Below are positions 16,298 through 17,012 of a DNA stretch of 64,000 bases, piece after piece. The stretch spans positions 3,844,001-3,908,000 of the forward strand of contig CM075988.1 in the NCBI GenBank assembly GCA_038087875.1, read 5' to 3'. The translations under genes were made by a program, and so were the position numbers. The notes below the pieces were generated by a model, which was given only the letters and a program-made list of their open reading frames with translations, was not told the DNA's origin and did no database searches. This DNA comes from Malacoraja senta (taxonomy: Eukaryota). Numbering within the stretch: position 1 is the stretch's first letter; each line of letters starts with the position of its first letter.

Positions 16298-16585
16298 TGG
16301 TGGAGTCCAGAACCCGGGGTCACAGTTCAAGAATAAAGGCTAGGCCATTTAGTACTGAGATGAGGAAAACCGTTTTCACCCAGAGAGTTGTGAATCTGTG
16401 GAATTCTCTGCCTCAGAAGGCAGTGGTGGCCAATTCATTGGATGTTTTCAAGAGAGAGTTAGATATAGCTCTTTGGGCTACTGATTTTGGATGATCAGCC
16501 ATGATCATATTGAATGACGGTGCTGACTCGAAGGGCCGAATGGCCTACTCCTGCACCTATTTTATATGTTTCCAAGACAACGAAC

Positions 16586-16639
16586 AGGGTGGGAGATTGC
16601 AACCTTCACGTGGTCTGCCCTGTTTCGACTAATGCAATC
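16586..16639 (+). ncRNA. Minimal HDV/CPEB3-like self-cleaving ribozyme motif (predicted)
   Basis: P1 AGGGUGG/CUGCCCU, P2 GAUUGCA/UGCAAUC, P3 ACC/GGU, L3 UUCACGU, GU, vestigial P4 UUCGA, J4/2 CUAA (putative catalytic C at 16629). Confidence 0.8.
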
Positions 16640-16724
16640 AACCCGGCGTGCACAAATAAATAGATCAAATAGAACAAGTTGACCTACAACTTTAGGCTGT
16701 GCACGCCGTACACAAGACGAAGAT
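16586..16724 (+). mobile_element. Short non-autonomous retroposon with a 5' HDV-like ribozyme (copy 1)
   Basis: 10-bp TSD gacaacgaac (16576-16585 and 16725-16734), degenerate (GAA)n tail, homologous to 39406-39537. Confidence 0.9.
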
Positions 16725-17012
16725 GACAACGAACGTGTTAACAGCAAGTCTGTGTGTGTCGGAGGTATAATAGTAATGACAGTGGGTATGTTAAATAGCA
16801 AGTACCAGCTGGCAACTTCTCAACTCCAGATGGATCAGAGTTTAAAGGTAGGTAAAATGAACATGTTAAATAACAGATACAAACTGGCAGCTTGGTTTAA
16901 TGTATTCATGAATTGTACACCTTCAACGGTTTGTGGGACGTCTACACAGGCGCCCAGTGCGATAAACAAGCTGGCTTGTCTCAGGGGTCAATGAGAGTGT
17001 GGCTGTACTTAC

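What the first reader, a model, noticed from the sequence alone, without database searches (positions are those of the whole stretch)
16576..16734. Tiny retroposon whose 5' end is a minimal CPEB3/HDV-like ribozyme, starting exactly at the cleavage site
Seen: a 139-bp element between 10-bp TSDs. Its first 54 nt parse as a complete nested double pseudoknot: P1 AGGGUGG, GA, P2 GAUUGCA, P3 ACC, L3 UUCACGU, GGU, P1' CUGCCCU, GU, UUCGA, CUAA, P2' UGCAAUC. The first nucleotide of P1 is the first nucleotide after the TSD, and no Pol III A/B boxes are evident. Established (from recall): HDV-like ribozymes cleave just 5' of P1 and process the 5' ends of R2, RTE and L1Tc/ingi elements. The mammalian CPEB3 ribozyme has the same UUCACGU loop and CCCU-GU junction. 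Inference: this is a promoterless SINE-like family that cuts itself out of read-through transcripts using a near P4-less ribozyme and is then retrotransposed in trans. It may bear on the origin of vertebrate HDV-like ribozymes. I cannot tell whether this family has already been described.
Basis: partly seen in the sequence, partly recalled or inferred. Interest (0 to 1): 0.92.

Follow-up and report, generated by a model that had tools for sequence, protein, structure and literature searches.

The report
Ribozyme-headed mini retroposon family
This 139-base insert is one of thousands of copies of a tiny jumping element that appears to trim its own RNA with a stripped-down relative of the mammalian CPEB3 ribozyme, and it probably borrows the copying enzyme of a nearby-related long element that carries the full-size ribozyme.

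Summary
Window 16586-16724 is a 139-bp insert between exact 10-bp target-site duplications. It belongs to a family with 5,776 exact hits to its core motif in this 1.94-Gb genome, against 30 for the control.

In 60 sampled copies of two families, homology starts at ribozyme position G1, give or take 1 nt.

The first 54 nt fit an HDV-like nested double pseudoknot. A second family (about 180 bp) and a 3.1-kb LINE carry the same architecture with compensatory changes in P1, P2 and P3. The J4/2 C-N-A-A is invariant.

The LINE looks RTE-like: one ORF that opens with an AP-endonuclease and an (AAG)n tail, which both short families share. Its ribozyme has a full P4 and scores 64 bits on Rfam's "mammalian CPEB3 ribozyme" model (cut-off 35). 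The window copy itself gets no Rfam hit.

I read this as a SIDE-like, LINE-dependent retroposon whose 5' end is made by self-cleavage. Cleavage was not shown, and one poly(A) RNA-seq run gave no pile-up of 5' ends at G1.

The kind is known (R2 SIDEs, NARTc, ribozyme-headed RTEs). What looks new is a P4-less version at high copy number in a vertebrate, and the close sequence link to CPEB3.

The parts
16576..16585 (+). left target-site duplication GACAACGAAC
   Evidence: Exact repeat of 16725-16734.
16586..16639 (+). 54-nt minimal HDV/CPEB3-like ribozyme module: P1 16586-92 / P1' 16615-21, J1/2 16593-94, P2 16595-16601 / P2' 16633-39, P3 16602-04 / P3' 16612-14, L3 16605-11, J1/4 GT 16622-23, 5-nt linker in place of P4 16624-28, J4/2 CTAA 16629-32 with the presumed catalytic C at 16629
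   Evidence: Sequence. Pair counts and compensatory changes across LINE, fam1 and fam2. Homology among copies starts at 16586/16587.
16640..16708 (+). 3' body, with an 11-bp stem (16644-16654 with 16698-16708) closing a long hairpin
   Evidence: strand folding gives -23.6 kcal/mol, z = -4.84, 0 of 200 shuffles as good. Conserved in all 30 aligned copies.
16709..16724 (+). 3' end with a decayed (AAG)n tail: TACACAAGACGAAGAT here, ...ATACGCAAGAAGAAG(AAG)n in the family
   Evidence: Alignment of 30 copies. The LINE ends in the same type of tail.
16725..16734 (+). right target-site duplication GACAACGAAC

Best explanation
The insert is a dead copy of a non-autonomous non-LTR retroposon (fam1, 139 bp). 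The element has three parts: a 54-nt HDV-like ribozyme of the CPEB3 type whose P4 helix is reduced to a 5-nt linker, a hairpin-forming body, and an (AAG)n tail.

Proposed life cycle:
1. Master copies have no promoter of their own and are transcribed as passengers of longer transcripts (inferred).
2. The ribozyme cuts just 5' of G1, so the RNA starts exactly at the element's first base. The precise DNA 5' ends are shown; the cleavage is inferred.
3. The endonuclease-reverse transcriptase of an RTE-like LINE in the same genome nicks a target and primes on the tail. That LINE carries the full-P4 version of the same ribozyme and the same (AAG)n tail.
4. The enzyme copies the RNA to its 5' end, which leaves 8-16-bp target-site duplications. 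The TSDs and tail are shown; the choice of partner is inferred.

A second family (fam2, about 180 bp) does the same with a ribozyme closer to the LINE's.
For: Family and ends:
- fam1 gives 2727 first-look candidates; the 40 scored are 93-100% identical and full length.
- The core motif has 5776 exact hits against 30 for the control.
- In 30 aligned copies, similarity stops at G1 and at the tail.
- fam1 TSDs: 28 of the 30 copies were scanned (L001 and L002 fell outside the script's pattern). 25 have a TSD. Of these, 19 abut G1, 5 overlap it by one ambiguous G, and 1 has one extra T. 3 have no TSD within the 40-nt flanks. L001 and L002 have TSDs that abut position 1.
- fam2 TSDs: 24 of 30 have one. 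Of these, 12 abut G1, 7 are ambiguous by G microhomology, and 5 have one extra nucleotide.
- Contigs from two other coded organisms lose similarity at 16587 and continue into unlike flanks (table 7).

Fold:
- LINE: GGGGATC AA GGTAGAA GCG TTCACGT CGC GATCCCT GT [P4] CGAA TTCTACC.
- fam2: GGGGTC AA GGAAAGA GCG TTCACGT CGC GGCCCT GT TTCCA CCAA TCTTTCC.
- fam1: GGGGTGG GA GATTGCA ACC TTCACGT GGT CCGCCCT GT TTCGA CTAA TGCAATC.
- Of 26 named pairs, 11 change on both sides (P1 3, P2 5, P3 2, base of P4 1). 97.3% of cells are paired.
- The C and the two As of J4/2, most of L3, and the GT of J1/4 are invariant or nearly so in 31 of 31 distinct sequences.
- For the fam1 consensus, the pseudoknot-free MFE structure is exactly P1+P3.

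Homology to known ribozymes:
- The LINE heads score 64.2, 63.8 and 56.2 bits on RF00622, whose cut-off is 35.
- In the genome, 39 of 59 scored candidates pass the cut-off, and 0 of 14 control genomes give a hit.
- fam2 copies score 32-37 bits.

Partner LINE:
- It is 3127 bp between TSDs.
- Its ORF opens with an Exo_endo_phos match and runs to the 3' end.
- A second copy has the tail ...ACACGAAAAGAAGAAGAAGAG followed by its TSD.
- 9 of 22 hits to its 5' end are full and 98-100% identical, so it is young.

Literature:
- P4-less HDV-like ribozymes self-cleave in vitro (PMC10879173, passages read).
- HDV-like ribozymes cut at the 5' junction of RTE, R4, L1 and R2 elements (PMC3774820 and PMC6765202, passages read).
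Against: - No cleavage assay exists.
- The window copy and its relatives get no Rfam hit even at E<=10.
- Pseudoknot-free folding of the window's 54 nt is no better than shuffles (z = +0.51), and its MFE is an alternative fold.
- In one poly(A)+ RNA-seq run of a related organism (about 6% of the run was read), the element is covered on both strands, but the table of places where many molecules begin or end lists none. No pile-up of 5' ends at G1 was seen.
- The covariation rests on only three independent lineages. The cell counts are inflated by shared descent.
- Apart from the tail and a short ACG motif, the 3' 549 nt and the 5' 600 nt of the LINE share no similarity with the short elements' bodies. 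How the RT chooses them is therefore open. I did not see the middle ~2 kb of the LINE.
- The within-family P1' variants (CCG, CCA, CTG) are CpG-decay products that happen to keep wobble pairing. They are weak evidence for selection.
Confidence: 0.75

Rival explanations
1. The 5' module is an inherited ribozyme fold that no longer cleaves once P4 is lost. It is kept because it binds the LINE protein or shields the RNA 5' end. The sharp 5' end at G1 would then come from a precise transcription start or from another nuclease.
For: Cleavage is untested and no pile-up of 5' ends was seen. The window copy gets no Rfam hit. R2 protein is reported to bind the pseudoknot of its own 5' ribozyme (PMC6765202, passage read), so a non-catalytic role for such a fold has a precedent.
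Against: The presumed catalytic C and the following AA are invariant in all three lineages, while the neighbouring base varies (T, G or C). L3 and J1/4, which build the active site, are the most conserved parts. P4-less HDV-like ribozymes are active in vitro (PMC10879173). No tRNA or B-box promoter is present. A carried-along internal promoter with a single-base start would be unusual.
Confidence: 0.12
2. The short elements are ribozyme-processed as proposed, but they are mobilised by a different LINE from the 3.1-kb family found here. That could be an extinct or unsampled subfamily with the same kind of tail.
For: fam1 and fam2 bodies share nothing with the LINE parts I saw. fam2 and the older fam3 share ACCACGC right after the ribozyme, and the LINE lacks it. 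Further ribozyme-headed families exist. The LINE copies are younger (98-100% identical) than the short copies, which diverge from their consensus by 3.3% (fam1) and 2.0% (fam2) on average.
Against: The LINE is the only coding element found with this ribozyme type and an (AAG)n tail. Its ribozyme is close to fam2's in J1/2, P3, L3 and J1/4.
Confidence: 0.2
3. The element is an ordinary Pol III SINE, or the pseudoknot parse is a chance reading.
For: The linker TTCGA resembles the core of a B box.
Against: ARAGORN finds nothing. No exact B-box match lies inside any of 60 copies, and fam2 has TTCCA at that place. The pairs hold in 97.3% of cells against 32-50% for slid partners. Relatives pass the Rfam CPEB3 model.
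Confidence: 0.02

Closest known systems
R2 SIDEs (short internally deleted elements) of Drosophila
   Same: Non-autonomous elements that keep only the LINE's 5' HDV-like ribozyme, which sets the 5' end, plus a 3' end used by the LINE machinery (PMC3414825 abstract; PMC3774820 passage).
   Different: SIDEs are rDNA-specific, low in copy number, carry a large R2 ribozyme, and share clear 3' UTR identity with R2. Here the elements are dispersed and reach thousands of copies. Their ribozyme is P4-less, and they share only the (AAG)n tail with the LINE.
HDV-like ribozyme-headed RTE and baggins LINEs (Ruminski et al. 2011)
   Same: Promoterless LINEs whose 5' end coincides with an HDV-like cleavage site. 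The 3.1-kb LINE found here fits that picture.
   Different: I could not read the primary paper, which is not held. I know it through passages in PMC6765202 and PMC3774820. Those passages name no vertebrate CPEB3-type example and no P4-less derivative.
L1Tc / NARTc Pr77 ribozyme of trypanosomes
   Same: A LINE and its short non-autonomous derivative share a 5' HDV-like ribozyme (PMC3383444 and PMC4035085 abstracts).
   Different: Pr77 is also an internal promoter. The ribozyme has a different sequence and a different host kingdom, and NARTc is a clear truncation of L1Tc.
Mammalian CPEB3 ribozyme (Rfam RF00622)
   Same: Same fold, with long identical stretches (AGAAGCGUUCACGUCGC, CCCUGUCA, UGCGAAUUCU). 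The LINE version scores 64 bits against a cut-off of 35.
   Different: CPEB3 is a single-copy intronic element in mammals with a P4 helix. The window element is a multicopy retroposon head in an elasmobranch, has no P4, has a different P3, and fails the Rfam model.
Minimal (P4-less) HDV-like ribozymes, including theta ribozymes of gut phages
   Same: They lack the P4 domain, are about 50-55 nt long, and keep the catalytic C in J4/2.
   Different: About 99% of them are reported to be confined to Caudoviricetes phages, often next to tRNAs (PMC10879173, passages read). Here the host is a vertebrate retroposon and the sequence is of the CPEB3 type.
Hammerhead-bearing SINE-like elements (Schistosoma Sm-alpha) and retrozymes
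   Same: Short non-autonomous retroelements that process their own RNA with a small ribozyme (PMC6765202 passage).
   Different: They use a different ribozyme class, occur in tandem or circular forms, and Sm-alpha is transcribed by Pol III.

Membership tests
HDV-like ribozyme fold | Nested double pseudoknot: P1, P2 and P3, plus P1.1 between L3 and J1/4 | tested here: met
   97.3% of cells paired, and 10 of the 17 P1-P3 pairs change on both sides between lineages. The single P1.1 pair, C-G, is present in 30 of 31 sequences.
HDV-like ribozyme fold | Catalytic C in J4/2, followed by N-A-A | tested here: met
   C, A and A are invariant in 31 of 31 sequences. The base between them is T, G or C. The window C is at 16629.
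HDV-like ribozyme fold | G1.U wobble closing P1 at the cleavage site | tested here: met
   The consensus of fam1, fam2 and the LINE has G1.U. The window copy itself has A1-U.
HDV-like ribozyme fold | P4 helix | tested here: not met
   P4 is replaced by TTCGA (fam1) or TTCCA (fam2), which gives at most one U-A pair. P4 is dispensable in the described minimal class (PMC10879173).
HDV-like ribozyme fold | Self-cleavage 5' of position 1 | not testable with these tools
   Indirect only: DNA copies start at G1. No RNA 5' pile-up was seen in one run.
Rfam RF00622 CPEB3_ribozyme | Score at or above the gathering cut-off of 35 bits | tested here: not met
   Window 16400-16900 has no hit at E<=10. For relatives: the LINE scores 56-64 bits and fam2 scores 32-37 bits.
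Rfam RF00622 CPEB3_ribozyme | Single-copy element in the CPEB3 intron of mammals | tested here: not met
   The element is multicopy and flanked by TSDs. The host is an elasmobranch, judged from the best named hits of a CR1-like RT.
SINE in the strict sense | Head derived from tRNA, 7SL or 5S, with an internal Pol III promoter | tested here: not met
   No tRNA. No exact B box in any of 60 copies.
SIDE-type non-autonomous LINE derivative | 5' ribozyme homologous to that of the autonomous element | tested here: met
   Same architecture and the same L3, J1/4 and J4/2. fam2 reaches the model that the LINE passes.
SIDE-type non-autonomous LINE derivative | 3' end identical to the LINE 3' UTR, with origin by internal deletion | tested here: inconclusive
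   Only the (AAG)n tail and a preceding ACG are shared. The bodies are unlike the LINE parts I saw. The LINE's middle ~2 kb was not fetched.
RTE clade (partner LINE) | Single ORF with an N-terminal AP-endonuclease and RT, and a very short 3' UTR made of a simple repeat | tested here: inconclusive
   The endonuclease start matches PF03372 at E = 3.1e-5, 24.3 bits against a cut-off of 24.5. The ORF reaches the 3' end and the tail is (AAG)n. The RT part was not fetched. Homologues are 850-1000-aa EN+RT proteins. No phylogeny was made. The RTE hallmarks are taken from the PMC2887409 abstract.

The most novel reading that the evidence does not exclude
The mammalian CPEB3 ribozyme is a domesticated 5' ribozyme of an RTE-type LINE lineage that is still active in elasmobranchs. 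Within that lineage, selection for small size has produced P4-less 52-54-nt HDV-like ribozymes, apparently twice. These now head thousands of parasitic mini-retroposons, which would be the first minimal HDV-like ribozymes with a clear job in a vertebrate genome.
Probability: 0.4. Interest if true: 0.82.

Novelty: new variant of a known kind. Interest (0 to 1): 0.68.

Why it matters
HDV-like ribozymes at the 5' ends of LINEs are known, and so are a few short parasites of those LINEs. Three things stand out here.

1. A 54-nt P4-less version works, or worked, at a scale of thousands of insertions in a vertebrate. The described minimal class is reported as almost confined to phages.
2. One genome holds a graded series: a LINE with full P4, short families with P4, and short families without it. 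That gives a natural experiment on how far the fold can be trimmed.
3. The LINE's ribozyme is close enough in sequence to the mammalian CPEB3 ribozyme to pass its Rfam model by a wide margin. The old question of where the CPEB3 and HDV ribozymes came from becomes testable by comparative genomics.

Such self-cutting inserts could also break host transcripts wherever they land in the sense direction.

Tried and rejected
- Rfam on the window: no hit for 16400-16900 at E<=10, and none at gathering score in the whole window.
- Earlier findings of this scan: nothing by sequence or by genome.
- First motif count: a wrong spacing (7 N) gave 75 hits against 95 for the control, so no enrichment. It did lead to fam2 and fam3.
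- Coding partner downstream of fam2 copies: no long ORFs. The ORFs in L034 belong to an unrelated CR1-like LINE.
- Similarity between the LINE's 3' 549 nt and fam1 or fam2: only chance 7-11-mers. No LINE 3' fragments related to the short elements turned up in 359 kb of held sequence.
- RNA: no RNA holder listed by the look-up of sequencing runs. I laid one raw poly(A) RNA-seq run and three contig sets. The unique flank 16726+ has zero depth, so this locus itself is not seen as RNA there.
- Pseudoknot-free folding of the 54 nt is uninformative.
- A Pfam scan of the LINE's C-terminal part was not done. That step was stopped, so the CCHC-like motif seen in the translation is unclassified.
As a result I did not see the LINE's middle ~2 kb, more LINE copies, or most RF00622 hits.
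- Papers not held: Ruminski 2011 (PMC3308841) and Webb 2009 (PMC3159031).
- Literature searches that found no description of this family or of a CPEB3-RTE link. One search was poorly aimed. Dfam and Repbase could not be searched, so the family may already be catalogued there.

Full report
**What is in the window.** One search shows GACAACGAAC at 16576-16585 and again at 16725-16734, with 139 bp between them.
- P1 16586-92, GA 16593-94, P2 16595-16601, P3 16602-04
- L3 TTCACGT 16605-11, P3' 16612-14, P1' 16615-21
- GT 16622-23, TTCGA 16624-28, CTAA 16629-32, P2' 16633-39

The remaining 85 nt fold into a long hairpin closed by an 11-bp stem (-23.6 kcal/mol, z = -4.84, 0 of 200 shuffles as good). 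They end in a decayed AAG-type tail. Directly upstream (to about 16572) lies the 3' end of an unrelated and very abundant CR1-like LINE.

**It is a large family with sharp ends.**
- A search of the window's own 1.94-Gb assembly gave 2727 first-look candidates. All 40 that were scored are 93-100% identical and full length.
- The core motif TTCACGTNNNNNNCCCTGT occurs 2875+2901 times, against 10+20 for the reversed control.
- In an alignment of 30 copies with 40-nt flanks, similarity begins at one base and ends in ...ATACGCAAGAAGAAG(AAG)n.
- The consensus first base is G; the window copy has A.
- A script scanned 28 of the 30 copies for target-site duplications. 25 have one: 19 abut G1, 5 overlap it by one ambiguous G, and 1 has one extra T. 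3 show none within the flanks held. The two copies that begin with A (L001, L002) also have TSDs that abut position 1.
- No copy shares sequence upstream of G1.
- These 30 copies differ from their majority consensus by 3.3% on average (range 0.7-7.1%). They are the copies most like the window's, so this sample is biased.
- Contigs from runs of two other coded organisms lose similarity at 16587 and continue into unlike flanks (table 7). The family and its boundary are therefore not peculiar to this assembly.

**A second family and a LINE carry the same fold with other letters.** A mis-spaced motif search turned up variants that led to fam2.

fam2 is an element of about 180 bp:
- 1970 first-look candidates, with the 40 scored at 90-100% identity.
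- 318+331 exact hits of a 27-nt core, against 0 for the control.
- It ends in ...GGACTCGATAAGAAGAAG(AAG)n.
- 24 of 30 copies have TSDs: 12 abut G1, 7 are ambiguous by G microhomology, and 5 have one extra nucleotide. L056 and L057 are the same copy in duplicated flanks.

The LINE came from searching the genome with Rfam's CPEB3 model:
- 51 matches at E<=0.001 among 59 scored candidates. 39 are over the 35-bit cut-off, and 0 of 14 control genomes give a hit.
- The best hits (64.2 and 63.8 bits) are the first 73 nt of a LINE.
- On contig 21 the LINE runs 3127 bp from G1 to ...GACACGAAAAGAATAAGA, between copies of GCAACAAAGA.
- A second copy ends ...GACACGAAAAGAAGAAGAAGAG followed by a TSD that matches its 5' flank.
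- About 45 nt after the ribozyme an ORF opens with an AP-endonuclease motif (PF03372, E = 3.1e-5, 24.3 bits against a cut-off of 24.5, with only the N-terminal part present).
- The reading frame reaches the 3' end.
- Homologues are single 850-1000-aa EN+RT proteins from fishes, amphioxus and echinoderms.
- Its 5' 498 nt has only 22 matches in the genome, and 9 of them are complete at 98-100% identity. The LINE is low in copy number and young.
- A single ORF, no ORF1, an almost absent 3' UTR made of a simple repeat and a ribozyme head are the hallmarks given for RTE-clade LINEs (PMC2887409 abstract; PMC6765202 and PMC3774820 passages). I did not fetch the RT region or build a tree, so 'RTE-like' is an inference.

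**The fold.** The three lineages side by side:

| Lineage | P1 | J1/2 | P2 | P3 | L3 | P3' | P1' | J1/4 | P4 or linker | J4/2 | P2' |
|---|---|---|---|---|---|---|---|---|---|---|---|
| LINE | GGGGATC | AA | GGTAGAA | GCG | TTCACGT | CGC | GATCCCT | GT | CAAGTAAT-8nt-ATTACTTG | CGAA | TTCTACC |
| fam2 | GGGGTC | AA | GGAAAGA | GCG | TTCACGT | CGC | GGCCCT | GT | TTCCA | CCAA | TCTTTCC |
| fam1 | GGGGTGG | GA | GATTGCA | ACC | TTCACGT | GGT | CCGCCCT | GT | TTCGA | CTAA | TGCAATC |

I aligned 31 of the 62 ribozyme sequences I held: 2 LINE, 19 of 30 fam1 and 10 of 30 fam2. The rows I dropped were exact duplicates, except L040, a distinct fam2 variant with one extra C in P1' that I left out by oversight. 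I then counted the pairs of the named pseudoknotted structure:
- 97.3% of 583 cells form standard pairs. Shuffles give 78.3% (0 of 500 reach the observed value) and partners slid by 1-3 columns give 32-50%.
- 11 of 26 pairs change on both sides: P1 3, P2 5, P3 2, and the base pair of P4 1.
- The J4/2 cytosine and the two adenines after it are invariant in 31 of 31 sequences. The base between them is T, G or C. L3 and the GT of J1/4 are nearly invariant.

Three caveats apply. There are only three independent lineages, so the cell counts repeat inherited states. MAFFT places fam2's 6-bp P1 one register off, which still pairs. The within-fam1 variants CCG, CCA and CTG in P1' are CpG-decay products that happen to keep wobble pairs.

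Pseudoknot-free folding gives exactly P1+P3 as the MFE for the fam1 consensus (-12.8 and -12.4 kcal/mol). For the window copy, with its A1 and two wobbles, the MFE is another fold. The window copy is thus a weakened, dead insert.

**How it most likely works.**
- Shown: precise DNA 5' ends at the predicted cleavage site; TSDs of 8-16 bp; (AAG)n tails shared by the LINE and both short families; a conserved ribozyme architecture.
- Inferred: master copies are transcribed inside longer transcripts, because no tRNA-like head or B box is present. The ribozyme cuts 5' of G1. The LINE's EN-RT primes on the tail and copies to the RNA's 5' end, sometimes adding one untemplated base.
- Support from the literature: P4-less HDV-like ribozymes self-cleave in vitro (PMC10879173, passages). 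Ribozyme cleavage coincides with the 5' junction in RTE, R4, L1 and Drosophila R2 (PMC3774820, passage).
- Against: no assay exists. The window copy gets no Rfam hit.
- RNA-seq result: one poly(A)+ run of a related organism was laid at 90% likeness, with about 6% of the run read. It covers the element on both strands (depth about 57-198 with the first mate on +, and about 31-133 with it on -) but lists no place where many molecules begin or end. Poly(A) selection and poor coverage of RNA 5' ends limit what this says.
- How the RT picks these RNAs is open. Apart from the tail and an ACG just before it, the LINE parts I saw share nothing with the short elements' bodies.

**Comparison with what is known.** The kind is known:
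- R2 SIDEs keep only the R2 ribozyme and the 3' UTR (PMC3414825 abstract; PMC3774820 passage).
- NARTc shares the Pr77 ribozyme with L1Tc (PMC3383444 abstract).
- RTE and baggins LINEs carry HDV-like ribozymes, and a review states that some non-autonomous SINEs use hammerhead or HDV-like ribozymes (PMC6765202 passages).

The differences here are as follows.
- The host is an elasmobranch. The best named hits of a neighbouring CR1-like RT are little skate at 84-89%, with stingray and bamboo shark at 73-76%.
- Copy numbers are in the thousands.
- P4 is lost in two families. The described minimal class is reported as about 99% confined to phages (PMC10879173).
- The sequence is of the CPEB3 type. 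The LINE head shares AGAAGCGUUCACGUCGC, CCCUGUCA and UGCGAAUUCU with the Rfam consensus.
- Two more short families with full-P4 heads exist: fam3 and fam4. The genome therefore holds a graded series.

My searches of the held literature found no description of this family, nor of a link between CPEB3 and RTE. The primary papers of Ruminski 2011 and Webb 2009 are not held, and Dfam and Repbase could not be searched. Prior cataloguing cannot be excluded.

**Verdict.** This is a new variant of a known kind. The boldest reading that the data allow is that the mammalian CPEB3 ribozyme descends from the 5' ribozyme of this type of LINE. I give that about 0.4.

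Noticed in passing
L034:196-271; L079 about 338-425; L080 about 339-421: fam3 is an older short repeat headed by a CPEB3-like ribozyme with a full P4 (CAGG...CCTG) and J4/2 CGAA. It ends ...CTACACTAACTAACCAAC. 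It scores 38.4 bits on RF00622 in L034. L080 has about 60 extra nt between the putative P1 and P2.
   Followed up: partly
L089 (minus strand) and L090 (minus strand): fam4 is another short element (about 115 nt) with a full-P4 CPEB3-like head. Its P3 is GCA/TGC, compensatory to the LINE's GCG/CGC. Its J4/2 is CTAA, as in fam1. Unrelated flanks follow. The RF00622 scores are 59.7 and 54.5 bits.
   Followed up: partly
L086, L087, L088: In three places the LINE's first ~95 nt (ribozyme plus 22 nt) are joined to three unrelated sequences. All three break after GCCGAAA. They could be chimeric or 3'-replaced copies, or heads of further families.
   Followed up: no
LINE endonuclease fragment, L082:199-600: The fragment is 88% identical, over about 39% of its length, to proteins named from a deep-sea teleost (Aldrovandia affinis). 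It is 92-98% identical to unnamed ENA and Logan proteins. This may indicate horizontal transfer of this LINE between fishes.
   Followed up: no
window 16400-16572: This is the 3' end of a CR1-like LINE. It is very abundant in RNA reads (depth 2000-6000 in X24) and in contigs of all four runs laid. The mini-retroposon sits just after it.
   Followed up: partly
window 16586-16724, run X24: The element is read 1.2-2.9 times more often with the first mate on the + strand. The adjacent CR1 tail is read about twice as often with the first mate on the - strand. The strandedness of the library is unknown, so the meaning is open. It may reflect a bias in the orientation of expressed copies.
   Followed up: no
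L035/L036 (contig 1, 18.85 and 19.00 Mb); L056/L057: The same element copy occurs with identical flanks at two places. This is either a segmental duplication or an assembly duplicate.
   Followed up: no
fam1 copies L017, L024, L030, L019: The subfamilies differ at the second base of J4/2: CGAA (as in CPEB3 and HDV) or CCAA instead of CTAA. They also differ by linked changes in the 3' body. Several master copies were therefore active.
   Followed up: partly
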